Assembly: GCA_054600435.1 (NCBI GenBank) | Contig: BAAIJX010000007.1 | Span: 62,001 to 126,000 of the forward strand | Direction of reading: 5' to 3' | DNA: 64,000 bases | DNA from: Neophaeotheca triangularis | Taxonomy: Eukaryota | Shown here: one piece after another, positions 6,341-56,523 of the stretch | Position numbering within the stretch: the stretch's first letter is position 1 | How the letters are laid out: each line of letters starts with the position of its first letter | Notes under the pieces: model-generated | The model's input: the letters and a program-made list of their open reading frames with translations, nothing else | What the model was told of the DNA's origin: nothing | Database searches by the model: none | Made by a program: the position numbers and the translations under genes

Positions 6341-7488
6341 ACACAATGGCGACTGCGTTGCCGCGGCTCAAGGGACCGGAATACTTTGAGCTGATCGTTT
6401 TATACTAATCCGAATGTTTTCGTAACCAGAGGATAGCCCCGAGACTGTCGCCTGGCTCTACAGAGAGACTCAGCAGAAGCAGACGAATGCCGACGCGTCC
6501 CCCAGCATTATTACCTCTCAAAGAGAAGCTTCTTCTACCGGCATTTCCTCCGTCACTGCGCCTCTCTACAGACGCACCGACCCTAGCAACCGCATTGTCA
6601 GTGATCCAGTCTACGCGACCCACAGATCTGACACCAACGGCCCCCCTTCCCCAACTCGGACGCATAGAGCTGTTTCTGGCTCTGTCGTCGTGGATCTGGC
6701 TAGTCCTTAGCAAACACCGGCCCCCACACATGCACATGCAGCGACATCAACACATGGCTGGATACCCCTACAATCAACCCGCACTCTGCACAATTTTCCC
6801 TTCCATTTTTCCCGCATCCCTACGCGAACATCAGCACGACCACGTTGGCCCAGAGTCATTCGGAGGATCCGTCCGTTTGCGAGAAGCGATTCTAGAAGAG
6901 CAAGCGAGGCCAGATAAGACTCGATACCCTGGACTGTCTCTCTGCAGCTACGGATGGTTGTCTTCGATACTTATGGCTCTCGCAAGAAACTATCGGCACT
7001 ATGCTTGGGAGATTCTTGCACTTGCAAAGGTTGCAATGGCTCCTTATATGTAGCTACGGGTGGAGCTACGGGTGGCTAGACAGTAGTTTATATTGTGTTG
7101 CTAGAAGTGTGCAACCTTTGCTTAGAATGTGTGCAGCTCACATTTGTGGCTGATCCGATGATTCGATTTCTAAGTCAATTCACGGTGATGTGAACAGGCT
7201 TAAGGTTGCGAATGCTCCCAATTCACCTACAAAGTTTTAATAGATGAAGAAGTGATTAGGCCGCTTAGCCTCTAGGTGGCCCTCGCCCTTGGACTTTTGA
7301 CGAAATTTGGGCCGTGGGCTAGCGTTGCCTTAAGTTGAACCAATGGTAGTAGGTCGATAAGCAGGTGGTTAGATTAGATAGGATCATCTAGCGCCCGCCA
7401 AGTTTTCGAGCTCTTGAAGATTTACCAAAAGAGGAAGTCTGAGTGTAGACTTTCTCTCCAACAACATAACTTAGGGCCAACCTTCATA

Positions 7489-9789: not shown

Positions 9790-9814
9790 GGTGGATGAAA
9801 TGTAAGGTTCTAAT

Positions 9815-10151
9815 GTCGGTTTTGAGCGAAACCCGACGCAGTATAGGCATACACTGTGCTATATGCATACTCAACTATTGCAGGAACACATCGAGCAGAT
9901 AAAGAAGTAACTCAATTTGTAAGAAGAAGTCAGTTAGCGCCTTATTAACGAAAAATTGAATTGAATGTCATCATTTTATATGTCTAGGTAGAAAAGGAAT
10001 AGCAATAGTTCCGTACATGCCGTAATCTAACAAGATTTTGTTTAGGACATATTCAATGTTGAATTTTGACACCTATATGTGCGTGCGCGAAATTAAGCTT
10101 TGCGCCAAGCCCTACTTTGTAGGGGTAATTGACCAGATTACTGTAGGGGTG
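9815..10151 (+). repeat. Left copy (A) of the direct repeat flanking the island (SDA1-tRNA intergenic region plus first 5 nt of the tRNA)
   Basis: Aligns by eye with 53409-53776 from GTCGGTTTT to GATTACTGTAGGGGTG; 10090-10151 is identical to 53715-53776 (62 bp). Confidence 0.95.
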
Positions 10152-10176
10152 TTCGACAGAGTTGGTCAATTACCAC

Positions 10177-10580: not shown

Positions 10581-13500
10581 AAAATGTAGAGACAGCCTAG
10601 GCAGACAGTATGCGACTAAAGGCGCTAAGGCACTCTATAGCCCTAGGGGTTTAAGCACTGTCGCTTAGTAATACCCTTCCCCCCGAGTTATTAGATCCTA
10701 GGCGTTAAAGTAGTGTCGGTAGGTAAGGATCATGTAGCTACTTAGGCGTCGTCGAGTGTTACGTAGCCTTGACATATACCTACTTATAGTAAGTTAGTTG
10801 CTCTAATATAGACACCTATAACAATATAGCTCTAATAAGATAGCTAGAATACGGCGTAAGGATAGGGGAGCTGACCTACCTAGCACTAGTACTAAGCGGA
10901 ATATCGACTAAGTAGACCCTTAAGCAAAAGAAGAAGCTAAGTTTTCAGCATACCTTACTAAATAGAAGAAAGCTAAGCGAGACGACGGCTTTACTAGGAG
11001 GGCTAATCTTACGGAGGAGACTACCGGCTAGAGTGACCAAGAGCGCTTCGAAGCCGCTATACTAACTCTAGAGGATAAGAAGGCGAAGCGCGTAGCTAAG
11101 TTAAAGGAGAAAGGCGAGCTCGTTCTATGCCTACCGGACTACGGGGTTTACGTCCTTAAGAAGGACAGCTCTAGCGAGGGTATACTAGGCATCGCGGGTT
11201 ACCTTAACTGTCCTACGACGGCCGTAGTATGGTAGCGCTTCGTCGACGATCCGGCGGTAGAGGCGATCTTAAAGGGCCTACACGAGGAAAGCTTAGTAAG
11301 TCTACATCCGGTCCTCTAGGCTTTAAGCTCGCACATGGCGTATAACATGGCGCCGGTGTTATTCTTTAGATATTAAATGTAGGTACCTAGTAAAAGATCT
11401 GCTAGTTAGCGGATCTTCGCTATTTTTAGCCACAAGAAAACTGCCGATTAGCGAATCCTTTAATAGTCGTTTTAAAAGGATCTACTAGTCGGCATGTCTT
11501 TACTAGCTCTTCGTACTTCGAAGACTATCCGATAAAATCCCTACGACCGCGTCACATGTAGAGCTAGCGTAGGAGGATGCAACTATATACTGACTAATGC
11601 TATCTGTCGTAGAAGGCGAACGCCTACGGTATAGTGATTAAAGAAAAGGCCGGTAGCTTCGTGGCGCTAACGTTCGTGAAGACAGACTTCTTCGCTAACC
11701 TAAAGTAAGGCCGGTTCTAGGCTTATGACGTCGCTAGTGATACGAGCCCGCTATTAGACAGATACCCTGCTAGCTCGACGTTACGAATACACCTCTACTA
11801 GCTAAGGGCCGCCGTTAAAATGATTAAAGCGGTGCCTATCTCGTTTATAGGCGCGGCGGCAATAAAGGGCAGAAAGTATGTTAAAGGCCTAGACATTAAA
11901 GCGGAGGACCTACACCGTTTCATCGTCTACTTTACGAAGTTCTACATCCGTAAGGTAGTGGAAAAGAGCTACGGTAAGAAGGCGCGGACGGTCGCATTCG
12001 CTAACCTACCTATCTTCTACCTCCTAGGCGAGTAATAGGCTAATACGGATAAGTAAGCCGCGTAAAATCATTACGCATTCGACAATTTGTTTAACTAGAC
12101 TATTCCCTCCGAGCACCTACTACGTTAGTTCGGCGACCGCTATAGCGAAACAGAGGGCGGCGACGGTAAAGGTAATGGCGGTAGCGGCGACGATACCGAC
12201 TTCGAGGAAAGCCCTAGGCTAGGCGGCGCCGCACTACGTTAGAGTTTGCCGCATCTCGAAGGGAAGGACTTGTCTCGATTACTCGGTTTCTTCGCCGACG
12301 GGGTTAATTATCTTTACGGCTCGAGGGAGAGGGGCAACCGTTTCTTTATACCCCCGTTAGAAAGTGTGCGTTTGTAAAGCGGTACGGTAACAGAAACGGA
12401 AAAGGCTCGCGAGGCTTCGAACGCACTTACCTATAGCGAGAGGCTCGCCTTTAACTAGGAGGAGTTTGCTAAACTATAACAGCGCGCTAACACGTGCTCT
12501 ACGGTAGCGCCCGACTAGGAAGACGCCGTGAATACGCTAGGCCTAAAGGTCTAGGAGCTCGATGAAGGAGAAATCGATTTGCTGACGCGACAAAACTTTC
12601 GAGTATCCTACCGCGGGCTATAACTTATACTATAGTAACCGTAGTCGTCCGCGTATATATACCGTATAATTAACGGCCCCCTTAGAGCGTGTATTAACAC
12701 CGACGACATAGGACTCGGTAAGACTATATCGACGCTCGTTACCGTAGTGTAGCGGTCTATAGACGTTCACTCTAGCCTCTAAGGATACTAGAACAAATAC
12801 TAGAGCCTAGTCGAGAGAGTACGGCGCGAGTAGGTAGTCGATTCGTCACAATCCGCAGATAGGGAAGATAAGAGCGACCCGAGCGACGAGAGGCTTATTA
12901 GTATAGTAGGACTAGAAGGCGCCGCTACTAACCTAGGCTATAAGCCGACACATAAGCTAGTACTTATCGTAGTGCCCCCGTCTACACTTAGCGCTTAGAC
13001 ACATTATGCCGCAAGGTACTTTTAAAATCGAGAACAGCGTATAAACATCACTATACGCACGTTCTTCGGCGTTAGCGGCGTAAAAGCTACCTCCCTCGAG
13101 CGGTAGTTGTCCGTCGGCACTACGGCGAGCGAGCTCTAGAGTTATTACGCTAGCCTCGACCCTAGCGACGATACTACAAGTCGAACGTGTATCCTAACGA
13201 CTTTTCGAAGCTTCTCGAGCCGCTGTCTAGATGCTTAAAGATCGGGGTTGTTAGACGGAGACGTTATAATGGAAGATTCGCCTAACGAAGTCGTAGAGGA
13301 AGTCCTTAACAGCGACGAGGAAGGACAAGAGTATGACGACTTGCTCGAGACGTAAGCCTACGAGCCCGACGAGGACGACGCCGACGCCCTTTAGAAGGTG
13401 CAATTCTCTACGCTTAGAATAGCTGCGGACACGTTTTCCTTACTAGTCGTTAACGAGGCTTATTAGGTCAAGAACCGCGTAAGCCTATAGACCGCCGCTT

Positions 13501-15868
13501 TATACAAGCTAGAATGTCGCGCCACGATACTCTATACCGCTACGCCGTACATTAACTCCGTGTATAATATGTACGGACTACTACGGTTTATGTAGAAGGG
13601 TATCGAAGGTCGCTTTAGCGGCTATTCCGCCGAGAGGCCTAACCGCGCCGCTTACGTCGAGCTCCTTAACAGCCTAACGAACAAGTACCGTCGTAGTATG
13701 TTTATAGTCCCGCCGGAGCACCTAGACACCTATCTTATAGCTCTCGATCCCGAGAATTTCAAGTCGCTACTAGGCGCCGGCGTTAGCGCGGTCGACATAG
13801 ACGTGAGCCACGACATAGTACGCTTACCCATAATGCTCACTTGTCTCCGCCGCGTAATAGGTAACAAGTTATAGGTAGCCGGCCGTAGCATTAGACTAGG
13901 CGCGGACATCCCGCCCTTCGAGGTTATCGTTATAGAGCTCCGCTAGGGCGACGCGGAATCGTCGTTATACGGGGCGGCGTACGAGGCGTGCTTTAGGGGA
14001 TCTAGTAGCGGGCTAAAGCGATCGTACGAGGAAGAGGGTCGACGTGCTATAGGCAGGCGCCGTAGGCTATAGCACGCCGCATTTAACCCGGCTTCCGATT
14101 AAATGTACATACGAAACATCGAAATAGGACCCGACACGATTTAGAAGATTACGAAGTAAGGACTCGACAGGTTCTTACTCTACTATAGCTAGACTAAAGG
14201 CAACCTCCACTATCATTTACTAGAGTCACGTATTACAATAGCGCTTTATGTTATAGGCGACTCTTATAAGATGCAAGCCGTGTACGCCGAACTTCTCTAA
14301 GTAGTTATTAGGGAAGACCGCAAAATGCTCCTATATGCGGAGTGGCCATTAAACCTCGAGCTACTAGAGTTGTTACTTTACATACTCGAAATCGAACACC
14401 TTTCTATCCGAGCGGGCGTTAAGGCTAGTAAAAGGATAGAGGCAGAAAACGAGTACAATAGTAACCCCGTAGTCAAGGTCCTCGTCTACTCTTCTAGATC
14501 GGCCGTAGAGTCGCTTAATTTGCAAAAGGGCGGCCACTACATTATAGTAGTAGATGTCATCCTAATTATAACGCTTATGCAGATTATTAGGAGGGGGTTC
14601 CGTGTCGGCTAGTCTTACCCGCAGACTATTAAGCTACTTACGGTTAACGAGACCTACGACTAATACCTCTTATATAGATACGTCGCCAACTATAGCGCCT
14701 AGCTAGCTGCTATATCCACTATCGAATTACCTAAGGCTGCCGTTAAAAGAGCTTGCCGTTAAGCCGACGAGCGCGATAGGCGCGGGCACTAAGGGGAACC
14801 GTCGGATTACGCCGAATACCTTAACAAAGCCTTACGGGAAGCGTTCGTAGGAGGCCTCGTATGTTGTATGCTAGGTATACGTTCGAACCGCGCCGACGAT
14901 TAGGGTGACGTGCGTAACGTGCGTAAGAAAAACTTGCTTCTAGAAGAGCGCCTCTTCCGCCTAGTAATAGGCGGGCCGGTAGCCACCGAGCTACTCCGTT
15001 AAATTTAGGAGAACAATTCTACTAAGTCCGTAGAGCTAGGCGACACGGTGCCTACGTTCTAGGCTAGCGTTTTCTCCGCCGCCATAGTTATACGTAGGGC
15101 TAATAGAGAGTCGTTTTTAGAAGGCAGCTACGTTCGCGCCTTAATTACTACGGCCCGGGACATAGCGGCGACCCGTGAATTCGCCCTAAACGCCGTTAGC
15201 GCGACCGACTACCTCGTTACTACTAAAGGCTAGGTAGAGACACCGTCGCCTTATCTGTACACGGTAATTAACCGCCTAGCGGGCGCGGAACAGTCCGGTT
15301 TAGCGTCTAGCTTAGATAGTCTAAATGTAGGCGGACAAGACGAACTATAATACGAAGCCTCGCGTACGGAGGATAGGCTACGGGTAGAGGCTATATGCTA
15401 GAGCGCGCTAGGTAGGAATTCCCCCTACTAACGCCGCTAGACCGCGCTAACTATATATAGACGGTAACGAAGCGTTAGTAGACAGCCTAACGAGGCAGGA
15501 GGATGTTCATAGTACGTTTCCGTTAACGTCGTGAAGGTGGATATGTGTTTTAATGCTGATAGAAAGTAGTTCCTTAAAGCGTAGACGAGTTGACCGACGA
15601 TTAAAGTCGAGCCTACTAGGAATGCCTTAGCGTGGTGAAAAACTTTTATTCGAGGTAGGGTATAGTAGCATTTACTAGGCAGGAATTTAAGGGAGAGGTC
15701 GACGCTAGCAAACGGCGCGACACGGTCGAAGTCGGCATGGCATTCTTATAGGTCGAGAAGGAGATCCGCGAAGGCAAGGCACATATTCTAGACTAGGCCA
15801 AGTATTCTAGGCAAGAGAAAGCATTGTGGGAGAAATGCTAGCGAGCAATTGAAAGTCCGAAAGAGTGA
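10574..15868 (+). pseudogene. SNF2/SWI2-family (SF2) helicase-ATPase, RIP-inactivated
   Basis: Motif I CINTDDIGLGKT (~12690-12725), Ia LIVVPPSTL (~12960-12990), II LVVNEAY*VKN (=DEAHQVKN after RIP reversion, ~13443-13475), III TATP (~13535), HELICc with ESLNLQ and motif VI QIIRRGFRVG* (=QIIGRGFRVGQ, ~14580-14612); probable introns ~11379-11611 and ~15512-15561. Confidence 0.9.
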
Positions 15869-18800
15869 CGAACGAGAGGGGGTCGGATCGAGGTAGAAGT
15901 AGAGGTTACACTACGGAGAAACAAACTGTTAGCATCTTCGGCGGTTTATTAGAACAGACGAATCGGCTCTAGGTATGGCTGTTTAAAAGGTAGTAGAAGT
16001 ATTAGGTAGCCTTACTCATTAATATAACCATGGTTTATGTCCGTCTGTTTTAGCGTTAATAGATCCTAGCGGCTTTTCATGATGCAGTAGATAGCACGAG
16101 GCTAATGGTCGAGTCTTAGAAAACTTCGAGGTGTTAGTCGGGGAGAGGCGGGAAGAGTACCTTGAGTTAACGCCTCCCCGACCCCCTTTACTAAGCGTAC
16201 TTAGTACTCGTGTAACCTGCCTTGGCTATTACAAGGTTTCACGCTACTACCTTACATATAGGCAATAAGGGCATATATGAATATAAAGTAGGCAAGAAGC
16301 GCTTTTCTAGTATCTACTATACTATATCCGCCCTAATCGACCCGAAAAAAGTATACTACGTGTTGAATCCTATTAAACAAAGAGCTATGTCTAGCGCTAC
16401 CCTTAATACATTACCTTATAGTAAGTCTTTCGCCCCGTTTTGCCTACCGAGTCTCTAGGACCTAGCCGAACCTCGCCCTCTAGCTCGCTACTATCTAAGC
16501 CCGGCGTTACCTTGCCTCTACAGTTCCGCGCCCGTTAGCTGTACGTGAAAAGACTAGAAGCTATTAGAAGGAAGGGCATGATTAATCGGAGGCCGTGTTA
16601 TCTACGAAGATTAGACAAGGAATGTCGCTATAGCCGGCCGATATACCGCGAGAGAGGTACTTAAGAACAAGAGGACCTCCGTTAGGGCTGCATACTAGGC
16701 GCATAATGACAGTGGGTGTCGTCGTCCGTAGCAAGATGTAAGGTGCCGACTTCGATATTCCTGTTACTATTTACCGGTTTCTTAGTTAACGACCCTAGGC
16801 CTTAAAGTCTGCTACCTTTATCGCTTCTACCTCTACTAGGGGCATCTTCGCCTATAAGATCGACAATCCCCGTCTCGAGAGAGAGACCGTAAGGCTTTAG
16901 GCGAAGGTCGAATTCCGCCCACGATAGTAGCCGAAGAGTCCGTGTCTATCCGTAGTGTTAGCCTAAGGGTCTTTACCTATCTAAGAATGCCGTTCTACAT
17001 GCCTCTTATAGCTAGTAGGGTTTACTTAGTGCTTTGTAGGGGCGTAGTAATCTAGCTCTTTACTCTATTCCTACATTGATTTAAATCGCTAAGTTAAGGA
17101 GTGTTAGCGGCAACGAGTTCAAGAATGTCGACGTAAGAGGCGTTAACTACGATCGACAGAAGTCTTACTATTAGCTCTTGTGTTAGACATCCGCTAGAGG
17201 TGTTTCTAGCGCGCTTCCGATACAAATGCATATTGCTATAACACTATCTCCGAATTGCAGAAATCTTTTAGAAGCACGTTCGGACCTAGGTCGACTAAAA
17301 GAGTTTATAGCCCTCTAGGTACTACCTTATAAAAGCTTACTAACTACTATGCCATTTAGAGCACTACGTTTAAGCTTCCCGTAAACACAAGAGTGCTAGT
17401 TGTGCTGTCTCCCTCCTATACAATCGGAGTAAGTTCATAGTATCTATCTAGATATAAGGCTTAAAAGCGGCCTAGTACTAATCGACAAGGCCGCATTGCT
17501 ATTAGCAATGCCCTTCGACGAAACGTGGGTTTAGAGCGCACTAATGCTCGACGAGCGAGGCGAATTGTTTAAGTACGGCATGAAGTTAAAAGTCGTCCTA
17601 CGGCTCGGGGATAACTAGGTAGCTAGTATTACTTTCGAGGTTTTAGAAGAGGTTAAAGTACCCTTACACGGTATATAGGAGTACGAAGCTCCGGAGAGTA
17701 ACGCGGCCACGGAACGAAGCGACGGTACTACTCGATCTAATAACGGTCTTAACGAGTGCTTCTAGGGTAAAAGGGGGGGCGGGGGGGGTCCGATTTTTAG
17801 GAAAGAGGCTCGTATGTTTGCAAGGGATATGATAGGTCGGCTTAGGCCTTAAGGAGGACGCCGTTATAAGGACCGAGGCTAGCAATAGCACACTGCCTAG
17901 GATTTAGATAGGGTTTAGGTGATGCTACCATTTCTATACTCGTTACGTTTGATTCTCCGCCGGCTAGGTACTATGTAATAAGTTCAAGCCCGGTTTACGT
18001 TAGGTAGCAAAACTTAAGAAGCTAAAACGCAGTAGTGTCTTGCTCTAACACGCGCGTTTATTAGATATACTAGAAATTGTCTAGATACTATCTCGTTACT
18101 ACCCGCTATCGCTAGTTTAGCTACTATAGTCATAGTCTTTAATAGTTATACGGTTCGGATCCACTAAACCACCTTAGCTTCTATCACACTAATACTAAGC
18201 GGGTATTAGTACGGCTCGCCTTTAATAAGAGTGCTATAAGCCTAAGCGTACGAGTAGCGCCCTAACGTCTACATGATTACGAAAATCAAAAGCCCCGGTT
18301 ACTCTCATTAGTTCCTCCTTGTCGCTACTAATCGAGCCCTTAGTACATCTTAATATCTACTATAACAGCTCCTATCGGTAGGAACTTGCCGAGGGTTCTA
18401 TCGAGCTATTTCCGCTATGTTAATGGTTAGCTAGCTAAACGGCGTACTGCTCCTTCGTACCCGGTTTTTCAAGCGCAGTAAATTATCCCCCGTAATGCCG
18501 ATCTTAGAAGCACGGCGCGATCGCTACGTATAGCCTCTAGAGCGCCTAATTGTACGACTAAGAACGTAGACGCTAGCGGCGTTAATACTAGTGTCTAGCG
18601 TAGCGTCGAGTATTCCTAACCTGTAGGGCACTAGGAGAGCTCGATACCGGAAGTCCTAGCTAAAGCCGATACGGAATAGGACGCGAAAGTGCTTACTTGC
18701 GCCTTCGAGGAGTCGTTCTTTGACTATATCGCTATCGAGAATGTAGAGGTATTACGGCGAGGAGTTAGTGACTACGATTGCTTATAAGGATAAATCTAGC

Positions 18801-19496: not shown

Positions 19497-20560
19497 TTAT
19501 GCGCCCGGTATCATGTCCGAGTCTTCCGTCTCCCTAAGTAAGGTTTCATCGTCTTGAAATTCGGCCCTCTTCCTTTTCGTTTTCCGCGCAACTCGCTTCT
19601 CTCTAAATCTGCTAGAGGCCCCGGCAAGACGTGATTGCCCTAAGGATGTTCTAGGTTCCGTCGCTTCTATAGAAGGTCGAGGGAAAATGCTATTCAGATC
19701 ATCCCCGTGACATCCCGCTAGTAGGCCTATTAATACCCGGCGAATGATGTCGTAGTAGAGATCCTCTAGGGTTTCTATAGTAAGGGACTTAAGCCGACGA
19801 GCAGCCGAACTAGCGGGATTCTCTTTGTCGTCGACGTGCGGGCCGTCTAGTAGAGGCACTAGATTTCGAAATTTTCCTCGACTCGAGCCCCCTAAAAGCT
19901 AGTATAACTCGGATGTTGTAGTTAGAACGAAGAGCTTTTTGGTAGCGTATAAGACTATCGAATCGGAGTTCGTTCGGAAGACGGGGACATTGCCGTAGGG
20001 GGCGAATTGTATACCGAAAAGCGGTGTACTAGCCGAAGGAGGGTTCATTATAGCGCTACTTTTAAGATATCTACTACGCTAAATGTCTTGCTAAAACGCC
20101 GTTCTCGAAGCGTGCGACCACTTGTACTTAGCGAAGTAGATAGGTGTATACTCTAGCCTTTATCGATGTTAGTAAGACCGCCTCGTAGAGCTTCATATTA
20201 TAGGAACTTACCCCGGAGGACAAGGGCGCCGGGCTTCTAGTACCCTAGAATTAACACCCTACTTACGCTAGGTAAAGCGCGAAGGTTAGTGGAAGAAGAA
20301 GCCGTCCCTATAGTGTGTAGCTAGCTTATTTAGAGCTATGACAAGCAATTCATTCTACGGTAGCGTACGCCTAATGTAGCCGACATCGATGTTATCTACC
20401 CGAAGTTATAGGTGTTTAGTCCTTATATCTCTCTAAAAGAACTTTAGGCTTGCTACGATGTTACGTAGTAAGTAAGTGGACTAATTAACGTCTACAGTGT
20501 CCGTTCTAGGGCTAGAGGTTAACCCCGACATATCGTCGATATAGCAATACTCCTATGATT
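19497..20560 (-). pseudogene. Hypothetical protein, decayed; C-terminal ~120 codons still open
   Basis: ORF 19497-19859 with basic NLS-like KRVARKTKRKR; frame continues upstream through RIP-type stops. No family recognised. Confidence 0.4.
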
Positions 20561-22285
20561 AGAGCGAGGTAGGAGGAAGACCTTATAGTGTTTAAAAGCA
20601 CGACACGTTCAAGACACTATCTGTGAAAGTACCGACACCGTGTCACAATGTGTTTCGAATGGCGGCGCGACTCCTCTATAGCACGAAACAAGACAAGGAC
20701 TAACTAGTTTACTCACTCGCATAATACATAAAAGCATCGTCCTTAGACTGTCGAGTCCGACTCGAGGCAAAGACCCTCTCCCCTTTGCCGCTTTACTAAT
20801 AGACGACTTAAACGTAGTTATTAGTTTTATGTCTATGTTATAGCACTAACAACTAACATTCGGAGCCGTGTACGACTAGCGCTCGAAATGGCAAAGCGCA
20901 TGCGAAAGGTTTTAGTTAGCATTAGGCGGCCCTCCGGCAATCTATTAACATTATGTCCTCTTATTCTCTTAGCTCCTAGGGCAACTAGACCTCTTCGACC
21001 TTATAAGGCTCGTTATACTAGAACTTCGAAGCGCCGGAACTCCCTAGTCGACCTCTTAACTATAGAGCTAAGTACTTAACACCGTCTCCGACATCCGTCA
21101 TTAGGCTCTACGAATCGAGTTAAGAACGCAAGCCGACTTCGATTTACCGCTTTATCTTAGCGAGAAACGTGTATAGCTAGAGGCGGAGATTCACCGCGCT
21201 AGAGTTCTACTCTATTAAGGCGGGAGCTACACTTTACAAGAGTAGAGGGAGATAAGCGAATGGCTAGTAAAGCGTCCGCTAGGCATCGCCTAGCCGATAG
21301 TTAGCGAAGAAACCTCGAGTCCTACTAGAAGGCCTTCGAACGAGGGGAGCGGCAATTAAGGAACTCCCCCGGAGTAAGAGGCTACATCCTCGCGCCTCTT
21401 ATTCTTACGACTGCCCTTAAACGCGATATAATAGTTAGGGCGGATAGCTAGGTAGTAGGAGAACGATTGTCTGTAGAACATCTAAGGGAAGTTAATTTAA
21501 GTAGTGTACCTGAAGGGGACTTGTGTATAAGAACACGTAGAACTAGTTTGCGAGATAGGTCGATTCGTGGAGGCTTATAGGCTAAACCGGGTAGGAGGGT
21601 AGTATCGGCTAAATTAGTTAGGTAGCGGAAGGGTAACCGTCGAGGTGCTTTTACAGCAAGTTCTTAGTAGGCAATATACGTGGTTAGTTAAAGGAATTTA
21701 TGCACGTGCCTTCCTACTAGGTCATGTGCAGATCACGTGATTCTTCTACTCTTGCCTTATGGCTTTATAAATGCCTTAGGCATGAAATTCCCGCCGGACG
21801 GATTCATCTTCTAACGTACAGCTCGGTAGATAGCTCTATCCTATTTAACACTAGATCTACGCCTATAGAACTATAGCCTAGGAATTTCCGCATTACCGGC
21901 TGTAAGAATCCAAGTAAAAAGACCTTACGGTAGGAAAACGCTACATGATATACTTCCCGTGTCTATCTAGTAGGACGAGTATAACAGGACTCTAGTATCT
22001 ACTATGTCTTTAGTCCTAAGTCACGAATCACTTATAAACTTCCCTTGTCCTATTCCGCAAATATCTAGCTTATAAGTTAAGGCCGTTAGGTAGGAGACAA
22101 GTACAAAGGGTTTATTAGTCTTCGTACGATTAGCGCAGTTCTTTCCGTAAAGTTACATTAACAAAATCGAGACCTCCGCCCCTTCTAACCTCCCTAGGCC
22201 CTCGCCCTCGTACTAAGTGAACTGTAGTCGAGATTATACACCCCTCCTAAATCATACTCCGCCCGCCCTTAGACCTACGCTTGCC

Positions 22286-32539: not shown

Positions 32540-35500
32540 CTCTTTAACAATGTACAGCGTTTCGACATAGGGACAACGCCTCTTTAGCGGACTAGACAGC
32601 TAGCGCGTCGTTGCTTTAAGTGTCATCCTTACTTAAGGGGTCCGCTACCTTCTTCGAGCTATCGCGCCTACGCGTTACTTTTCTATAACTGTTAGTAGTG
32701 ATTAATCATTAGTGGAGACGTGTGAGGTAACTAACCTCCGAAATCCTAAGCCGCTTAGTGAACTTTATAGAGCGTTGTCCGATACTCACGTCTTAGGAAA
32801 GGCTTACTAATAGTACTACTCTATAGATTTACTACGCTTATAGGCCCGTCACGATCGCTATATAGAAGATCGAAAAGGTTAGTGTAGATAGAATCCGTGC
32901 TAATAATGTACCGTAATGGATTAATCGTCTTATCTACGATAAAGGGTAAGCCTTTAGTGACGGCCTTAACGTTAACAGTATTAGTCCTAGAGAACTAAAG
33001 GGGCTCGGCAGATTCCTGCCTAAGAGACAAAGGTTTTCGGAAAAAGGATTTTGGTCGATCTTTGCATGCGATAGGCTGCCTCGGTAGTCTATCGTGAATA
33101 GCGGTGTAGCCCGAAGGAAGGAAGAGGTAGGAATCTGCGAGCTACAACGACTAGGCCATTTTAGCTTTATATGTGCTACTAAGCAGTACGAAGCGGGAGT
33201 CGGGCAAAGGAACCGTCTAGTAGGCCTTACGCATATAAATCGGATAAGTGTAGCGCCCCCTACTAGCTATAGACAAATCCATGAAGCGGAGGACAACGTA
33301 TTCGGTATCGGCGAGATAGGAAGAGTATACTTAGACCGGTAAAGCTCCATTTGCGCAAAATTTGATGCGCGCTTCGTGGCTCTAGCTATACTTCACGACA
33401 ACGTGATTACTATAGCCGTAGCCTCTATCTAGCGGGTAGCAGATTAGCGGCAATTCTAGCGTGTAAAACCGAAAGTTTAGGTCGTAGTACACCTAGGGTA
33501 GGGACTTCGAGTAGAATGTTCGGCCGATGTCCTACTTTAATTAGTTAAAGTCGGGCTAGCGGAGTTCATCTAGTCGTGTGAAGCTAGACTTAATAGCGAT
33601 CTCTATGTCGGTACTACTAGCTATAGTAGCTATAGCGATGCTGTCCACTTTAGCGAATGCCGCCCTAGCGTGCGACTAGACGTACTATAGCATACGCTAC
33701 ATCTACTCTCTACTAGGGCTAAACGTATGACTGTCGAAAGACGCCTAGTCTAGACGTCCCGTTTTGGATTCGGACCACGCTTCGTTAATGTCGTCGCGGC
33801 TAAAGCACACTAAAAGGCCGTCTAGGAACTAAATTATAAGAATGTGCTATTAACGGCCTAGGGCGAAAGGCGAACGTAAGCTAGTTTCCATATTTCCGCC
33901 GCGCTAGAGATACTTAACTTTAACACGAAGAGCCTCGTCACATCTAGGTATCGCGAGTAAAAAGTCACACTAAAGAGGCTAAAGAGGATTCTGCATAACG
34001 CGGTAGCCTAAGGTAGAGAGGTCGTCCTAGAGCTTTAGCATGTATTTAATTAATGTGCCTAGCCTTACGTTACCTTCCGGCCAGATCGCTACTATCTTCT
34101 ACTTCGAAGGGTAGAAGCCCTATAAGACGACCTTCGTCGTCGGGTTAACATACGGCGAGTTAGCGGTAGCCTCTAATAAGCGGTTCGCGGCTGTAGCGAC
34201 GTCTTTCTATTTAACTATAAAGGCCTATGCCCACGTTAGGATGTTTAAGATAAGTGGCTAGATTCCGCTCGACTAATCTGTGCTAGCGTCGAAGACGTGC
34301 TTTAGCACTATAGCGATATGACTACGAACGTTCTCGAAGCCGATGAAGTACACCTTAGCCTATTCTTTCTACTAGCTATATCCCGAAACGAAGGCGAAGT
34401 CTTCCTCTTTTAGCCCGCTAGGTAATAGAGAAAGATACTTGACGTTATATAGTAGGAATCTAACAGCGGAATTTTTCATTTTGGACTTTTTATTAGCCCA
34501 TTCGAGCTTCTTACCGTCGGAGAAGTCTTCGAGGCCTCGATCGGCTTCCGTGTTAGGGTTATATACGAGGACGAAGTCGACTAGGGCGGATTCGTAAGCT
34601 ATCGTAGTGGTTAGTTTGCCGCTCGGCGGAGTAAGTAGAATCGCCGTACGAATAGCGGATAAGGTTAATTCCGGCCTACTAGAGCATCCATACAATCTCG
34701 TCTTTAGCTAGATACCCTAAGCAGGTGTAGTGGTAAGGGGGCTTCATTATGTATCGTATCCCCCTCCCTAGTGTATCGAAGTCTAGCTTAGTGTTATGAA
34801 TTCGATGTGCTATTGTGACTACTAATGTAAGCCTGTCTTGGGTAGAAGAGTAGTCGGACATCATTCTGCTTTACAAGTATACCTAGTAAATAATGTAGTA
34901 GGAAATGCTCGCTTAATTATATAGCTAGCCGAAGAGGTAATATAAGCACGGTAGGGCTTGCCGAGCCTATCGTATAGGCGCTACCTACATCGGAGCGGCG
35001 TAGGAGGAATAGAAGGCGACTTAGGAGGCGGAGTGTAGGTATAAGCAAGTAAGTACCTAAGTCCTCTAAATCTACGATACCGGTACTACTCTTACTAACC
35101 CGGACAAAAGAGATCGTAATACTCGCCCTATAGCGCGGTAGATTAGCTAGCTAATGCAAGGCTTTAGAGTCTCTCGTGGAGTACTGCCTCGAGAGGGCGA
35201 CTAGGCTCGCTTTTTATGTGCCTCGCGTCAGCCCACGCTATATATCTAGTCGACGATTCTAGAAACACCTAGTTGATTCGCCTAAACTTTGTTAAAGCCT
35301 CGTGGACGTTCTATACAAGGACCGGTCCCTTAAGCGAGCCTTGTAGATTAGTAAGTAGCTAGGTATAAAGGGTCAATTCACGCCTACTAGCTACTTGCCC
35401 GGCCCGCTTTAAGGTCGTAGGCCTCTCCTTACAAGCAAGTATATCGCCTATAGTTGTAAGGAGGAGTTTTCCGCCTAGCTATAGTAGGATTAGTGTCTTA

Positions 35501-36600
35501 GCGACAAATTCAGACCTCCCGGGCTTATTATCCTTTAGCCGAAACTCGAAGGATACAACTCCGTTATTATAGCGCGTAAATAGTATTAGGAAACGCAGGC
35601 GTAGAGCGGGCATAGCGGCGCTAAGTGAGATTAGTAGACGGGAATTTTAGGGTTTCATTCTTAGATACATACCTGCTCTAGTGCTAGCCTTACGTCAGGG
35701 CGCTAACCCGTAGACGTTATATAGGCGTGTAATTTCCGTACTCGTACTTCTATAGGGCTTGCCATTCGATATCCGCGAAGAATATTAGGAGATCTACTAC
35801 TACATCCGCAGCCCTCCCTGTTCCCCTCTCGTAAAGGCTTTATAGTGGCTAGCTATATTACACATGTCCTATGTCCTGCTTTTAGCGCCTTTAATTAAAT
35901 AGTCTATAGGAGGCCATGCCTACTTACCCTTTAGCCTAGGCGTCGAGCGAATGTAATCGTTAAGGGCTAAGCTAACAAGCCCTTCGAGGGACGCCCTAGC
36001 GCGATTTCTCCTAGTGAATCCTTAGACGAACGTGCTAAAGAAGGTTTCGAGTAGCCACTAGAGGTCCGCGAAGGAAGTCTCGGCTCCAAGAGCGGGGAGT
36101 ATCGCAATGCCCGAATCGTTACTCGCCCTTATCAAAACTATAGCTTGTACTACTATAAGTAGGATCTTAGGGTTCTTCTTCTTCTTCTTCTTCTTCTTCT
36201 TTCCCTAACTTACACTCCCTAGCTCTACCTTAGGGTCCTACTTATCGGAAATGTTATCTACTACGTCTCTATCGTTCGCTAGGCCTCTACTAGTCTTCTC
36301 GTTAGACTACTCTCCTTTACCTACTATAGTTAGCTTCGTAGACGTGCTTAGGAGAGTTAGTTGTTCTAGTATGTAGCGGAAAGTATGTAATACTAATCGA
36401 CCGCTAGAGTATACTATTTTAAAGACACTATAGTAATGTTTGTAGCCTTCTTTCTTACGCGTTTAAGTCTATTATGTCTTAAGGAGATAAAGACCTGCCG
36501 TTCGATCTTAGCTACCTACATCTTCTAGGTCAGCTTGATTTCACTTATACTACCCTCCGTTTTAAGGGGGCCGCGCGGTCGCGTCTAATGGTTACTATAC
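32540..36600 (-). pseudogene. Large multi-exon protein with PD-(D/E)XK-like nuclease motifs (paralog 1)
   Basis: Long exon ~34860-32738 with LGYLAKDEIVWML, LGYRVMQNPL*PL*CDFLLAIPRCDEALRVKVK (D…ExK after RIP reversion, ~34010-33914) and GYGYSNHVVVKYS*SHEA; upstream exons include a poly-Lys run encoded by (AAG)n. Confidence 0.55.
36173..36200. repeat. (TTC)n microsatellite
   Basis: About 9 TTC units; reads as poly-Lys on the minus strand. Confidence 0.9.
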
Positions 36601-50350: not shown

Positions 50351-50969
50351 CAATACACTCTATAGTCTACTAGCCTATTCCTATCTACTACATAATCCTT
50401 CTCCGCAATTCCCCGCCCTAGCTATACTAAGTACCTTAGTGCCTACGGGCTACTGCCGATGTGCCGCCTTCTTAGTTCTAGTTATCGTGGCCTAACTCTA
50501 GGCTCTTAGGGATAGTCATTGCCTTACTACTATTACTAGACATAGCTCCCCCCTCTTAGTAGATCTCTAGTACGTTGTCGACGAACGTGTTAACCTTGTC
50601 GGTAACCTCTACGGAAGCGTTAATAGTGTAGTCCTCGGCGAGGCGAACGACGATACGGAGTTTTAGGCTGTACTCGACCTAGCGGCCTCGCCGATCCTAA
50701 TGCGGCGAGACAAACACCTATCGCTCGAACGTCGCTATCGTAAGGAGTAGTAAAGGAGTCTTTAGCGCCTAAGTTCTTAAAGTTAGCAATACGTTCTTAG
50801 CGGGTATTTGCTACCCTCTTACACTTACCGAGTAAACCTAAGCGTAAGTACCGGTTTTTAGTTAGGAGGAGCGGTAGCCGTAGAGTCTATCCTGTTTTCT
50901 TAGAATTAGGCCGGGTTCAATTCTCTCTCCTTACGATTAATAATAACGAGACAAACTAACCTGACACGA

Positions 50970-53408
50970 TATAGATCCGATTAAATTTGCCACATAAATA
51001 ATCGCTTATACGGAGTAGTAGACAAGGAAGCAACTAGCGGCGAGGACCTCCCTATATTTGTACATAGGATAGCCTCTTAATAGTGTCGTTTGACCGCCTC
51101 TACTTAGCGACTAGCTATCTAAGATTGTCTCACTTTATAACTTGCCTATTAGACGATATAACGCCTTCGATGTAAGCTTGCGTCCGAATCTACCGTGCTT
51201 TAACTTATAGGTCTTACTTCCGTTCGGCAAAATGATACTGTCGGCGATCATTTCGTTAACGAGTTTTGCTACCCCGGGGTTAGAAGACTAGGCTTCCTTC
51301 CCTTATAGTAAGTCATTTACTCCTGATTTAGAATCCGCGTTAGAAATGAATGTCTTTTTTCAGCTTTCTAGGATCTTGCCGCATATAGCCGGAAAACTCT
51401 AACAGTTGTTTAAGCTATATATGAGGACGTAGTAGCGTAGTGTCTATGTCGCTATTTGTAGGAATAGCTATTCCATTACTTACGAGTATCTATAACGCCC
51501 TCTTCCTAAGTTAAAAGCTCCTCCCGCCTCCCCTTCGACAAGATAGCTAGGGACTTGAATTAGTTAGCACGGATAGTAGGGGTTTTTCGCGGCATCCTTT
51601 ACGAAGGAGACATCTTCGCGGCTCTTCACTAGTCACCTTACATAGTGCGATCGTTCGAGTTTGCCCTTACTAATGGCGTAGTAGACTACGATCACGAATT
51701 TGACGTAACGGAAAGCTATATAGACAGATTCTAGGCTATACACACAAGACGTATCGCGATAACCGAACGGCACACGTTATTACTCTTCGACGTAAAAGCA
51801 TCTCTTAGGGGCGCTACCGGCGATTAACACCGGATTACTACCGCTACTTAGGTAAAGGTAGTAGCTTTCTTCGTTAGACTCTACGTAGCTAATCTAACGT
51901 ACGTGGAGCTAATACCTAATTTCCGCCAGGATACTAGAGTAGCCCTCCGGATGTCACTAATAGAGGCTATAGTTACGCTCGTAGTGAATATTACAAGACA
52001 ATGTAGGCTACTTCTAAGTTCGTATAGCGGACTTAACTAATGCATAGCACCTTACCGTATGCCGCTAGCCCTCCTCTTAACAGCTATTAGTAGAGTAAGG
52101 GACGTGGCTCGGAACGGCGGGGTCTATATTAACCCGTAGACTAAAGTAGCATTTCCTAATTGGCATCCGGAGACGACAAAAGCCTTAGATTGGCTTCGGC
52201 CTTACGAGTAGTTAGCTTAATTCACGGCGAGTAGAGCTGTGTTAGAAATTTATCGCGTAGTTACATTCTTCTATGCCCTAAGTAGACAGGGCTTTCTAAA
52301 GGTCGACTTTATCGGCATATAGCCCTACCTTGCCGATCTTAAGGTCATTCTTAAGGATCGGCAAGTGTTTATATAGTACAAGATCGACTCACAATTACGT
52401 TCGGAAAGCTCGACGCCGTCGAGCGTTCTAGTCGCCCGACAGTTAAAAGGACGGATCAAGTATCATTTTTGCGCCTTCGATCGCTTCGACTTTTACCTAC
52501 TCGAATTCACATTTTCTAAGCATTAAGAGATATTGTTCTTCCTAGAAAGAATTTTGCTAGATGAAATGTACAGCACACTAGAAGAGCGTGCTAATTTCGA
52601 AATAGACCGCTTTCTCCCCTTTCGAATAGAAGTAGACGAAGAAGACAGGTAGATCTCTAGTATTCTACATATTATCGAAAACGACCCTTATCCTCGAGCA
52701 GTCGGCGAGCGACTACCCCGGATCAAGACGCCTTCTCCGTAAGACGTAGAGGCAACACAAGCAGTCTTACTATTAAACGAGATAGCTCTTAGACACCGGA
52801 TCTTCTTCTATAGTATTATGTGTCAATACGCCTAAAACCGCTCCGGCCTACTTATTATGCTTACGAGAGTATACCCATTCGGCGATTTCGGCTTTTACCG
52901 CTATACTTAGACTATATAAGAGGCATAAGATTACCTCGAGTACCTCCGCCCCCCCCGGACGGCTTATTAACTGCTAGTAGAGACGGAAATCCTCCCTATC
53001 TACTTTTTCACCTACCGTAGCGAAGCTTTCTTCTAAGGGCTAGAGGTAAGACCTGCCGACTTTCGCCGCTTAGATTCGTGTAGCGAAGCCCGTCTAACTG
53101 TTTAGGACCTATTTGGCGGTAACGCTACCCCCTCTACCGTCTAACTTTTCCTCATTCCTTTAGGTAACATCTTCCCGACGTCTATATAGCGCGAAATTTT
53201 CCTAAAGGCCTTAACTAGCACTAGTTGCTTCTAGGCGCGGACCCCTTGTCTTTTAGCACTACTTCGAATAGGATTATAGGCGTCTAAGTACTATTTACCT
53301 AGAGTAGATCGAGGGCCTTACATCTACGACACACGGAGCGAGCTACTATGGGGGCCTCCTTAGCGAATTTTGCAGCGCTTTATAGGACTTAAGCTTTTTA
53401 AGCACCCC
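50970..53408 (+). pseudogene. Protein with tandem PD-(D/E)XK-like nuclease motifs (paralog 2), running into the right repeat
   Basis: Single ~680-codon frame from ~51364: GILYEGDIFAALH (~51591), LLFDVKASL (~51780), *PYLADLKVIL…FI*YKID (~52320-52388), RFDFYLLEF, YPFGDFGFYRYT*T (~52872); two short upstream introns. Confidence 0.6.
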
Positions 53409-53776
53409 GTCGGTTTTAAGCGAGACCCGACGTAGTATCGGCATACACTGTGCTATGTGTATACTTAACTATTGTAGGAACATATCGAGTAGATGAAGAA
53501 GTAATTAAATTTGTAAGAAGAATAGATTTAGCGCCTTATTAACAAAAAACTGAATTGAAGGACATCATTTTATAGGTCTAGAAAAGGAATAGCAATGGTT
53601 CCGTACATGCCGTAATCTAACAAATTCTAGTTGTATCATATCCAACGTTCACTTAACACATTTTGGTTAGAACATAATCAATTTTGAATTTTGACACATA
53701 TGTGTGCGTGCGCAAAATTAAGCTTTGCGCCAAGCCCTACTTTGTAGGGGTAATTGACCAGATTACTGTAGGGGTG
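53409..53776 (+). repeat. Right copy (B) of the flanking direct repeat
   Basis: Aligns with 9815-10151; has ~35 extra nt near 53623-53660, several transversions, and RIP-type changes in its proximal part. Confidence 0.95.
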
Positions 53777-53875
53777 GTTGGCGCAATGGTAGCGCGTTGG
53801 TTTTCGGTCCACCGAAAGTATAACGGTACTTCTGTACTGCACCAAAGGTTGAGGGTTCGAGCCCCTTGCTGCTCG
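53772..53875 (+). tRNA. tRNA-Arg(TCG) with 32-nt intron (53808-53839)
   Basis: Cloverleaf: acceptor GGGTGGT/GCTGCTC, D arm GCGC-AATGGTA-GCGC, anticodon stem TTGGT/ACCAA, anticodon TCG at 53804-53806, intron after position 37 containing CCGAAA complementary to the anticodon loop, T arm GAGGG-TTCGAGC-CCCTT, G73, followed by T-runs. Confidence 0.92.
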
Positions 53876-54253: not shown

Positions 54254-54530
54254 GAGTAGAGGAGGCAGGGGGTGGTGTGGGATAAAGGATTAACTACTCA
54301 AACCAACAACAATTCCCCCAAAACGCCAGAATTTGCGACACTAGAGCAGATATCTCACGAGAAAGTCCAAATCTGCCCAGCGTTCATTCGCTCCTCCCTG
54401 CTCAATGGATCCCTATCAACCTAAGCGAGTACTTGCTCTAATGTCGCAAATTCTGGCGTTGTGGGGGAAGTGTTGTTGGCTTGAGTAATCAATCATCCCA
54501 TCCCACACCACCCCTTGCCTCCTCCGACTC
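54254..54530. repeat. Imperfect ~100-bp inverted repeat downstream of the PP2C stop codon
   Basis: 54254-54356 pairs with 54427-54530 (e.g. AACGCCAGAATTTGCGACA / TGTCGCAAATTCTGGCGTT; GGAGGCA.GGGGTGGTGTGGGAT / ATCCCACACCACCCC.TGCCTCC). Confidence 0.9.
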
Positions 54531-54541
54531 CACACCGCACC

Positions 54542-56242
54542 CTATCTCCTCCGACTCCTCGGATCACTAGCCTCATTTCTCCGCCACTCCCTCAACTCCC
54601 TCGTCCCCAAAGCGCCCTCTCCACCTTCACCCCTCCTCTCCCACCCCCCCAATCTAACCACTAAAGCCGTAGCATTATCCCCGCTTTCCCCAACTTCAGT
54701 CGCAAAACCCACGAGCGCCCTGCCCGCCTCCTCCGGCGTTCTGGCCTCCTTGACCACATCCACGACTTCCTGGTCGCTGAGTTCCGCCGCAACACCGTCG
54801 GACATGAGAACCAAGAACGAGTACTCAGCCGCTTTGAGCTGCGTGGTGACGATTTGCGGTTCAGCGCTGACGCCTATGCGCTTGCTGGCAATGTCGCCAA
54901 AAGAGCGGGTGTTGGCGAGACCTAGCACACGTTCTTCGCCGAAAGAATCGGTGACGAAGGAGGCGGCGTAGCGGCGGAGGCGGTTGGCTTCGACGGGGGT
55001 TGAGGGGTGGTGGTTGACTGTTAAAGGGACAGCAGCACCGTCTGAGGTGCGGCATAACAGGATGCGCGTGTCGCCGACATGGGCGGTTAAAAGGGTTGAT
55101 GGGGAGGCGGGGTGCCAAAAGGGGGTTGGGGTGGCGGTGCTGATAAGGGCTACTGAGGCTGTTGAGCCGCCTTTGAAGCGGGTGTTGCCGCCGATGGGAG
55201 CGCTGAGATCAGGTGTCTGGCTAGAAGAGGGGTGTTTGGGGTGGGCGCGAAGGTTTTGGGAAGCCGGTCGGTCGGGGTGAAAGAGGAGGTCGTTTTCGTT
55301 GAGGGGTTTGTCCGAGAGGACGGGGTCGTCGACGGAAGTTTTGGGGGTGGATGGTTGAGTGTGTTTGGCTGCTTGGGCGGCGGTAAAGTCGAGATCCGCT
55401 TTGAGGAAGGCGTAGCTGAGGATCGTCTCAATGGAACTGTTGTTGGCGGTTTCTGGGAGATCTTCGACATCTCGAGAGGCTGCGACGGCGGGGAAGAATT
55501 CAGGCTTGAAGCGTTTGAAGTAGCCGCCTACGGTTTCGCGCCAGCTGCTTACCAGGGATTTTTGCAAGTCTTCTGCATCCATTTCTCCCATGATTCCGCC
55601 TTCGCTGTCCAGTTCTCCGGCGTCCTGTGTCCCGCCTTGAGGTTGGAGAGAAGAAGTCATGCCGAACAAGAGGGCGGCTTCCTCCACATAACCGTGCAAC
55701 CTGTCTCTTAAGAACTCACTACACTCGGTCCCGCCATGTCCGTCAAAGACTCCAAAGTAGAAGACTTGAGGGTCGCCAGACTCGCTCTGCGCGGCATGTC
55801 CTTCTCCTGCGCCTTTTTTGGGTAGTTTCGAGGTCAAGCTCTGGGGTTGCCTCTGCGCAAAGGCGGGCATTTCAATGGTTCCAGCTTGGTATGTATCTTC
55901 ATTGTAAGGTCTGCTGCCCCTACTAACTCCAGCTCCGAAATGGTGTTTGGCGCTCTTGATGGGTATGCGAACAATGGTAGTGTCTCGGTTCGGTTGGGGG
56001 AATTGAGAGGGCGTGCGAGAGCCGGTATTGGAGGGTTGGCCATGCGGTTTGGATTCATCGCGAGGGAATTTGTGGTGTTGACCGGACGCTTTGTCGGGGG
56101 AGAGCGAAGAGGAAGGGAGGTGAGTGACGAAGTAGTCGTGAAAGGCTCGTCTTTGGGCGGGAGTGCGAGTGTGTGGGTTGATCTCTGTTAGAAACGTCCG
56201 CAAGGCTGCGGCGGTGTTGAAGGGAGCGCCCGGTTGCTTCAT
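54542..56242 (-). CDS. PP2C-family phosphatase, Ptc6-like (true start may be further upstream)
   Basis: RGSRPYNED, FGVFDGHGG, GGSTAS, AHVGDTR, LANTRSFGD, LVLMSDGV, GDNAT motifs. Confidence 0.93.
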   Translation of the reverse strand: MKQPGAPFNTAAALRTFLTEINPHTRTPAQRRAFHDYFVTHLPSSSLSPDKASGQHHKFPRDESKPHGQPSNTGSRTPSQFPQPNRDTTIVRIPIKSAKHHFGAGVSRGSRPYNEDTYQAGTIEMPAFAQRQPQSLTSKLPKKGAGEGHAAQSESGDPQVFYFGVFDGHGGTECSEFLRDRLHGYVEEAALLFGMTSSLQPQGGTQDAGELDSEGGIMGEMDAEDLQKSLVSSWRETVGGYFKRFKPEFFPAVAASRDVEDLPETANNSSIETILSYAFLKADLDFTAAQAAKHTQPSTPKTSVDDPVLSDKPLNENDLLFHPDRPASQNLRAHPKHPSSSQTPDLSAPIGGNTRFKGGSTASVALISTATPTPFWHPASPSTLLTAHVGDTRILLCRTSDGAAVPLTVNHHPSTPVEANRLRRYAASFVTDSFGEERVLGLANTRSFGDIASKRIGVSAEPQIVTTQLKAAEYSFLVLMSDGVAAELSDQEVVDVVKEARTPEEAGRALVGFATEVGESGDNATALVVRLGGWERRGEGGEGALGTRELREWRRNEASDPRSRRR

Positions 56243-56523
56243 GGTTGGTGGGAATGATTAGTAGGGAGGTGGCGGTGGAGAGGAAGGCAAGAATGCAGTG
56301 AGTTGGAAAAATATTTAAAGCATTGTCGCAGGGGAAGCGCAAAGGAGGTAGAATGAGCTAATCATCGGCCAGTGATGCAACTTGCGAGTGGTGTACAGTA
56401 GTAAGGTACTGTAGGTACTAAGGTAAGGTAGTTGGAGGTTGGAGGTGGGTGAAGTGCGGGCCAGCGGCGGGCCGATGGAAGAAGACTTCAAGGTTGGGAA
56501 GAGAACGAACCTCACCTCACCTC

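What the first reader, a model, noticed from the sequence alone, without database searches (positions are those of the whole stretch)
32540..36600. Two paralogous genes with tandem PD-(D/E)XK-like nuclease repeats
Seen by manual alignment after RIP reversion of this gene versus 50970-53408, in the same order: GYLAEDEIVWMLQ vs GILYEGDIFAALHQ; QPLQCDFLLAI…RVEVK vs QPHLADLKVIL…FVQHK; WHILIIQF…LVCF vs FDFYLLEF…LFF; HGHGDHVVVKHSWSHEA vs HPFGDFGFYRYTWTMQEA. Established: G…E helix, D and (D/E/Q)xK are restriction-endonuclease-fold hallmarks. Inference: two to three nuclease-fold units per protein, acting as targeting/homing nucleases or as toxin/drive factors of the element.
Basis: partly seen in the sequence, partly recalled or inferred. 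Interest (0 to 1): 0.72.

Follow-up and report, generated by a model that had tools for sequence, protein, structure and literature searches.

The report
Triple-nuclease genes in giant fungal element
Two broken, distantly related genes in a 44-kb inserted block beside a fungal tRNA gene each encode three restriction-enzyme-like domains in a row, an undescribed protein family that recurs in similar blocks in other fungi and may help these elements cut DNA to move or persist.

Summary
Direct BLAST of the two mutated genes is not significant. Intact relatives do link them: family profiles align at probability 99.7, E 7.7e-26, over 462 columns. Confident models of one intact relative of each (pTM 0.82 and 0.88) show three tandem PD-(D/E)XK-fold domains. 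Nearest solved folds are I-Ssp6803I, RecU, Hjc and type II restriction enzymes (Z 4.4-8.8). Domains 1 and 2 keep the catalytic Asp and Lys in 19 of 19 aligned members of both families; domain 3 does not.

Corrections: gene A is about 34864-32700 with one intron, and gene B runs to 53504. Both are RIP-killed here.

They lie in a 44-kb RIP-mutated block ending at a tRNA-Arg(UCG) gene. Another sample of the organism has the tRNA but no cover of gene B. The A+B pair recurs on contigs C38 and C24 (tandem copies at tRNA-Arg(CCU)) and in a metagenome locus ending at tRNA-Thr. No recombinase or transposase was found, but those tests are weak.

Best guess: element-encoded DNA cutters serving mobility (0.4). 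A toxin or drive role is the main rival (0.25). No activity is shown.

The parts
32700..34864 (-). Gene A: three tandem PD-(D/E)XK-fold domains; RIP pseudogene; probable intron about 34654-34599; 3' end uncertain by a few dozen codons
   Evidence: model of relative P0059
34110..34760 (-). Gene A domain 1 (E helix on exon 1; D and DxK on exon 2)
   Evidence: fold inferred mainly from homology to domain 1 of B
33660..34070 (-). Gene A domain 2 (P..D..ExK in the family)
32730..33510 (-). Gene A domain 3 (same fold, catalytic motif not conserved)
51555..53504 (+). Gene B: paralogue with the same three domains (about 51558-52145, 52206-52691, 52743-53489); RIP pseudogene; last gene of the block; start codon not fixed
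   Evidence: model of relative P0010
10152..53776 (.). About 44-kb RIP-mutated block carrying A, B, an SNF2 helicase gene and unknown genes
9815..10151 (+). Left direct repeat: end of a second gene B copy, its 3' region, the tRNA leader and the first 5 nt of the tRNA; read as the remnant of a tandem copy
53409..53776 (+). Right direct repeat (gene B end, 3' region, tRNA leader, tRNA nt 1-5)
53772..53875 (+). tRNA-Arg(UCG) gene with intron, at the right junction; one copy found in the genome
   Evidence: anticodon read by eye
11601..15600 (+). RIP-broken SNF2-family helicase gene
   Evidence: PF00176 E 3.5e-10
20964..21278 (+). Small gene shared with C38 and C24 ('C'); its relatives appear fused to the N-terminus of B in P0016-P0018
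   Evidence: fusion seen by eye
19566..20399 (-). Gene shared with C38 and C24 ('D'); a likely relative follows the tRNA in L043
   Evidence: L043 by eye
16447..16777 (-). Gene fragment shared with C38 ('E')
7378..9789 (+). Host SDA1 gene, left flank
54542..56257 (-). Host PP2C gene, right flank

Best explanation
A and B are anciently diverged paralogues, each a single chain of three PD-(D/E)XK folds with two probably active sites (domains 1 and 2) and one inactive, probably DNA-binding unit (domain 3). This part is well supported (about 0.9). They are core genes of a family of large fungal inserted elements that tend to sit at tRNA genes (about 0.75). Inferred and untested: each chain acts alone as a double-strand DNA cutter, one site per strand. 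The element uses them to open its target or process its ends, in the manner of a homing endonuclease or TnsA, with host repair or a recombinase not detected here finishing the insertion. In this window both genes were inactivated by RIP, probably while the element stood as a tandem pair.
For: Homology and fold. Asp61, Lys102, Asp284 and Lys299 (P0010 numbering) are invariant in 19 of 19 rows mixing both families. A and B occur together in 5 element copies: window, C38, C24 twice and metagenome locus L050, while most other genes differ. The block is bounded by repeats and RIP-marked; C24 has two head-to-tail copies, 91-93% identical, ending at a tRNA. Sample X2 has no cover of gene B but holds the tRNA, with two contigs running off into other sequence. 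tRNA genes lie at the end of or inside 3 of 3 clusters in this genome and in 3 of 22 metagenome loci, 2 of them independent. I-Ssp6803I, a homing endonuclease (PMC3424549, passage), is the top Foldseek row for B and the top wide-search row for A (Z 7.3, rmsd 2.9, 120 aligned). No tyrosine recombinase or DDE transposase above cut-off turned up in 35 ORFs of the unmutated C38 region or in the genome searches.
Against: No activity, expression or target cleavage is shown. Z scores are middling (best 8.8) and no PDB Foldseek row reaches E<1e-3; RecU, Hjc and SPARDA nuclease domains tie with I-Ssp6803I, so the fold does not choose a function. The elements abut different tRNAs at different ends (5' of Arg-UCG, 3' of Arg-CCU, 5' of Thr-CGU), which one conserved nuclease specificity does not easily explain. 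Gene B has no tRNA directly downstream in any of the 22 metagenome loci (many are short). The negative recombinase searches are weak: the DUF3435 control rang nowhere, the window is RIP-damaged, only part of its frames were scanned, and C38 exons under about 140 codons were not scanned.
Confidence: 0.4

Rival explanations
1. A and B are nuclease toxins of an addiction or meiotic-drive system that keeps the element in the population, like Spok genes or Wolbachia CinB, with one of the small conserved genes (C, D or the FHA gene) as antidote.
For: CifB is built of four tandem REase folds, two active and two inactive (PMC11342252, passages), a close architectural parallel. Spok killing needs a restriction-like nuclease domain (PMC9972908, passages). 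Gene C appears fused to B in P0016-P0018 (by eye).
Against: The models show no kinase domain as in Spok, and three units, not four. No antidote is identified. The CifB/CR-REase7 His three residues after the catalytic Glu is not conserved.
Confidence: 0.25
2. A and B are structure-specific nucleases (single-chain junction resolvases) that resolve circular or tandem intermediates of the element, and some other enzyme picks the target.
For: RecU (Z 8.8, rmsd 3.4, 131 aligned) and Hjc (Z about 6) are among the best folds. Tandem copies exist at C24 and are inferred here. It would explain why the targets differ.
Against: These Z values tie with sequence-specific enzymes. No intermediates were looked for.
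Confidence: 0.15
3. A and B are passive cargo, for example restriction-like defence nucleases against invading DNA, on Starships whose captain is lost or unrecognisable.
For: Size, cargo, short direct and imperfect inverted repeats and tandem insertion all fit Starships. Captains can be very divergent or truncated (PMC13486527, passages). Multi-domain structural relatives exist in giant viruses.
Against: The pair is kept in 5 of 5 element copies where both were looked for, while other cargo turns over. No captain was seen even in the unmutated C38 region.
Confidence: 0.17

Closest known systems
I-Ssp6803I homing endonuclease (PF11645 PDDEXK_5, PDB 2OST)
   Same: PD-(D/E)XK fold; best or near-best structural match to domain 2 of both proteins (Z 7.3 and 6.4). 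Its home in a tRNA-gene intron is recalled, not from a call.
   Different: About 150 residues, one domain, bacterial. No PF11645 hit for any of the 59 A members or 9 B members scanned. Here there are three fused domains and spliceosomal introns.
RecU and Hjc Holliday-junction resolvases
   Same: Fold match to domains 2 and 3 (Z 5.9-8.8).
   Different: Small single-domain prokaryotic enzymes; no sequence match in the PDB.
Wolbachia CifB/CinB
   Same: Tandem REase folds mixing active and inactive units (PMC11342252).
   Different: Four units with 2 and 4 active, against three with 1 and 2 active; upstream CifA; the diagnostic His is absent here.
Spok spore killers
   Same: Fungal, restriction-like nuclease domain.
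   Different: Spok has a putative kinase resistance domain in the same chain; A and B are nuclease folds throughout.
Starship elements
   Same: Tens of kb, variable cargo, short direct repeats, imperfect inverted ends, insertion at Pol III genes (5S rDNA in 23% of sites; PMC11162782).
   Different: No captain found (weak test); targets here are tRNA genes; the conserved genes are A and B.
Uncharacterised giant-virus proteins A0A076FH51, A0A1V0SIJ8, A0A3G5A8P9
   Same: Only Foldseek matches at E<1e-3 (4.9e-6 to 1.4e-4), spanning 377-422 columns, so more than one domain.
   Different: 8-10% identity, TM-score by query 0.20-0.31, function unknown. No B relative in viral contigs.

Membership tests
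PD-(D/E)XK superfamily | alpha-beta-beta-beta-alpha-beta core | tested here: met
   Models. All top-ten rows of both wide searches are members or recalled members. Ranges in B cover three separate domains: 23-223, 244-407, 438-655. In A, domains 2 and 3 match directly; domain 1 rests mostly on homology to B.
PD-(D/E)XK superfamily | Catalytic (E)..D..(D/E/Q)xK, domains 1 and 2 | tested here: met
   A4: D61 and K102 invariant; E38, D100, D284, Q297, K299 at 90% or more. A3: D288, E303, K305 at 90% or more. The domain 2 helix Glu is not conserved. Assignment is by position in the predicted strands, not by residue-level superposition.
PD-(D/E)XK superfamily | Catalytic motif, domain 3 | tested here: not met
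   No conserved acidic or Lys column in domain 3 among 19 rows.
PD-(D/E)XK superfamily | Metal-dependent nuclease activity | not testable with these tools
   Needs an assay.
PDDEXK_5 / I-Ssp6803I family | Pfam PF11645 match | tested here: not met
   No hit; the atlas lists it only as a weak neighbour (score 0.80, 18% of members).
CifB/CinB | Four tandem REase domains | tested here: not met
   Three domains in both models.
CifB/CinB and CR-REase7 | His three residues after the catalytic Glu | tested here: not met
   The family His is at +1 (ExK = EHK/QHK); +3 varies (criterion).
CifB/CinB | Upstream CifA gene | not tested
   No CifA profile was compared.
CR-effector (Crinkler) REases | NTPase domain before the REase | tested here: not met
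   No NTPase in the models or in Pfam scans of family members.
Spok | Kinase resistance domain in the same chain | tested here: not met
Starship | Tyrosine-recombinase captain as first gene | tested here: inconclusive
   PF11917: no match but control silent. PF00589: no match, control rang in 14 of 14. 35 C38 ORFs negative. Window only partly scanned and RIP-damaged.
Starship | Direct repeats and imperfect terminal inverted repeats | tested here: inconclusive
   C24: about 4-nt repeat from the tRNA 3' end and an imperfect inverted match of about 20 nt, by eye. Window: about 340-nt repeat, and a 12-nt inverted match that is altered in sample X2.
Starship | Large size with variable cargo | tested here: met
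   About 44 kb here; C24 spans of 33 and 36 kb including later inserts.
Starship | Presence/absence at an empty site | tested here: inconclusive

The most novel reading that the evidence does not exclude
This is a class of giant fungal element distinct from Starships. It has no tyrosine recombinase or DDE enzyme and is mobilised by a pair of single-chain triple PD-(D/E)XK proteins that cut at tRNA genes, giving tandem arrays. It would be a eukaryotic cargo element driven by restriction-fold enzymes, with structural kin in giant viruses.
Probability: 0.25. Interest if true: 0.87.

Novelty: new variant of a known kind. Interest (0 to 1): 0.64.

Why it matters
The family has at least 114 representatives at 50% identity on the A side and 39 clusters at 90% on the B side. 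Named members come from Dothideomycetes (Hortaea, Elasticomyces, Zymoseptoria, Aureobasidium and others). It has no Pfam or PDB sequence match and nothing below E 0.03 in PHROGs. It gives a marker for large fungal elements that captain-based searches would miss. If the proteins cut tRNA-gene targets, they would be a new mobilisation chemistry and single-chain double-strand cutters with long sites. If they are toxins, they would be a new fungal drive system parallel to CinB. An unmutated copy on C38 makes either directly testable.

Tried and rejected
Direct BLASTP of the two broken genes: not significant.

Pfam, PHROGs and PDB sequence searches: nothing meaningful. Atlas search: only leads under 0.9.

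The idea that the element replaced the tRNA's 5' end (the acceptor stem has four G-U pairs) is rejected: an X2 contig covers 53772-53892 with no difference.

The idea that the terminal repeats are LTRs is disfavoured: they contain the end of gene B's reading frame and the tRNA leader, and no retroelement gene was seen.

The idea that B is always the last gene next to a tRNA was not borne out in 22 metagenome loci.

Real two-domain forms of B (300-400 aa) are doubtful: they stop where the C38 copy has an intron.

A weak hAT dimerisation hit next to B in L051 (E 0.0016, below cut-off) has no match in this genome.

Viral contigs hold no B relative; A could not be searched there. Prokaryote genome contigs were not scanned.

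Runs X3 and X7 do not cover the junction and say nothing.

Earlier-findings look-ups were empty. Seven paper searches listed nothing describing this family; subscription journals and supplements were not seen.

The script machine was lost, so no tree, no frame model and no full gene map were made.

Full report
Setting. The window is fungal (G000:C7:62001-126000). From about 10 to 54 kb the RIP index is +0.9 to +1.9, against negative values outside. The block lies between host SDA1 (7378-9789) and PP2C (54542-56257) genes. It is bounded by direct repeats at 9815-10151 and 53409-53776. The finding's stretch has no second DNA copy in the genome.

Observation. Read with X at stops, the quoted motifs are present. 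The two broken genes do not match each other significantly (best E 0.037 and 0.012). Intact relatives settle the matter. Gene B found 9 proteins at 29-40% identity, and a profile of six of them found 39. The genome itself holds an unmutated copy of both genes on C38 and RIP-mutated copies on C24. The C38 gene A found 114 representatives. I aligned 59 of the 114 (A3) and 36 of the 40 B-type proteins, leaving out the four with an N-terminal fusion (A4). The profiles match at probability 99.7, E 7.7e-26, over 462 columns. A B HMM scores 19 of the 114 at E<1e-3. The window genes belong to these families (E 1e-71; E 2e-102). Gene A is shorter than stated: about 34864-32700, with its first helix on a separate exon. 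That exon has only a weak match of its own, and the intron position is read by eye against C38. The stretch 34870-36540 is unassigned. Gene B's frame ends at 53504.

Structure. AlphaFold models of intact relatives are confident: B (P0010) pLDDT 81, pTM 0.82; A (P0059) pLDDT 86, pTM 0.88. Foldseek against the PDB gives no row at E<1e-3, but the top rows are I-Ssp6803I, Hjc and EcoRV. The wide search places three domains in B. Residues 23-223 match PvuII (Z 4.8) and NaeI (4.4). Residues 244-407 match RecU (Z 8.8, rmsd 3.4, 131 aligned) and I-Ssp6803I (6.4). Residues 438-655 match Hjc (6.0) and Cfr10I (5.5). In A, residues 250-390 match I-Ssp6803I (Z 7.3) and 441-678 match BsaWI (5.2); a second look adds SPARDA nuclease domains at 7.7. 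These Z values are middling, and the tool warns they do not show function. The case rests on all leading rows being one superfamily and on motif conservation. In a mixed alignment of 6 B and 13 A proteins, Asp61, Lys102, Asp284 and Lys299 are invariant, while domain 3 has no such column. In the window copies several of these positions read Asn, Lys or stop, as RIP would give. The only structural matches at E<1e-3 are three uncharacterised giant-virus proteins, over 377-422 columns.

The element. The right junction overlaps the first five bases of a tRNA gene at 53772-53875, read by eye as Arg(UCG); one copy was found. The left repeat holds the last codons of another gene B copy, the tRNA leader and those five bases. 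I read it as the remnant of a tandem copy, which would also explain RIP of a now single-copy block (inference). C24 shows that arrangement intact: two head-to-tail copies, 91-93% identical, each with A and B, ending at the 3' end of a tRNA read as Arg(CCU). C38 has A, B and three other shared genes, with a tRNA-Val inside the cluster; its ends were not defined. Among 22 metagenome loci with B, L050 also has A 2.8 kb away (E 2e-77) and an FHA gene. There, TpA-rich DNA runs up to a tRNA-Thr 9.4 kb downstream of B. L043 has a tRNA that looks like the same Arg(UCG) 2.6 kb upstream of B. L049 repeats L050. The other 19 loci show no tRNA, many being short, and none has one directly after B. A was tested for only in L050. 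Sample X2 of the same organism has no cover over 50500-53627 but covers the tRNA and about 50-55 nt of its leader, then runs into other sequence in two contigs. This fits presence/absence variation and shows that the tRNA's 5' end is native, against my first idea. A very diverged element in X2 is not excluded.

Mobilising enzyme. None was found: PF11917 (control silent), PF00589 (control rang), 35 ORFs around the C38 cluster, 46 ORFs next to B in metagenome loci (one weak hAT hit), and part of the window's frames (only SNF2 scored). This is weak evidence of absence.

Mechanism. Shown: paralogy, three folds, two conserved catalytic sets, co-occurrence of A and B, insertion-like context. Inferred: two active sites in one chain cut both strands. 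The same logic is proposed for the four-domain CifB (PMC11342252, passages seen). I favour a role in mobility (0.4) because the pair is the most constant content and nothing else catalytic was seen. Against this, the targets differ in tRNA and in end. A toxin or drive role (0.25; Spok, PMC9972908, passages), a junction-resolving role (0.15) and passive cargo on captain-less Starships (0.17; PMC13486527 and PMC11162782, passages) stay open.

Novelty. The fold and the tandem-REase plan are known; this family and its element are not in Pfam and did not appear in seven paper searches (listings only, with passages of five papers, including PMC3424549). Supplements of Starship surveys, not seen, may list these genes as unnamed cargo. 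Verdict: a real, undescribed family on a probable mobile element, a new variant of a known kind, interest 0.64.

Noticed in passing
window 9766-10598: Left junction is rearranged: an inverted, RIP-marked copy of 9766-9907 (including the SDA1 stop region) at 10374-10515, and a direct repeat 10169-10225 / 10542-10598.
   Followed up: partly
window 53772-53875: Apparently single-copy tRNA-Arg(UCG) whose acceptor stem has four G-U pairs; ARAGORN misses it, Rfam finds it, and sample X2 has the same letters.
   Followed up: yes
window 11392-11502 and 36859-36936: A motif of about 80-110 nt occurs twice, each time before a probable gene start; could be a shared promoter or an internal end (D8/D16/D17).
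   Followed up: no
window 34870-36540 (-): About 550 codons upstream of gene A in the frame of its second exon; no match in A-family proteins, Pfam, C24 or C38.
   Followed up: partly
window 11601-15600 (+): Broken SNF2 helicase gene, not seen among the C38 ORFs scanned.
   Followed up: partly
G000:C24:232527-240286 and 263419-271148: A 7.7-kb insert with 220-nt terminal repeats, present twice in opposite orientation plus a solo repeat at 284251-284474; LTR-element-like.
   Followed up: no
G000:C38:119167-119239 (L019:9167-9239): tRNA-Val inside the unmutated A/B cluster, with TpA-rich flanks on both sides; may mark a junction between two insertions.
   Followed up: partly
L050:20386-21189, L051:2180-3085, L042:1317-2111: An FHA-domain gene recurs next to B; C38:139930-140607 looks similar by eye.
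   Followed up: partly
P0016-P0018: B fused behind a helical domain that is a separate small gene in the window (20964-21278) and on C38.
   Followed up: partly
P0023, P0164, P0078: A-family proteins with long extensions (about 1,900 aa in Hortaea werneckii), and one joined to a superoxide dismutase piece, possibly a gene-calling error.
   Followed up: no
window 54259-54524: Long hairpin-forming inverted repeat next to the PP2C 3' end (I3/I9), variable between samples.
   Followed up: no
L051:8165-9019: Weak hAT dimerisation hit downstream of B; ORFs of the same length follow B in L045 and L054.
   Followed up: partly
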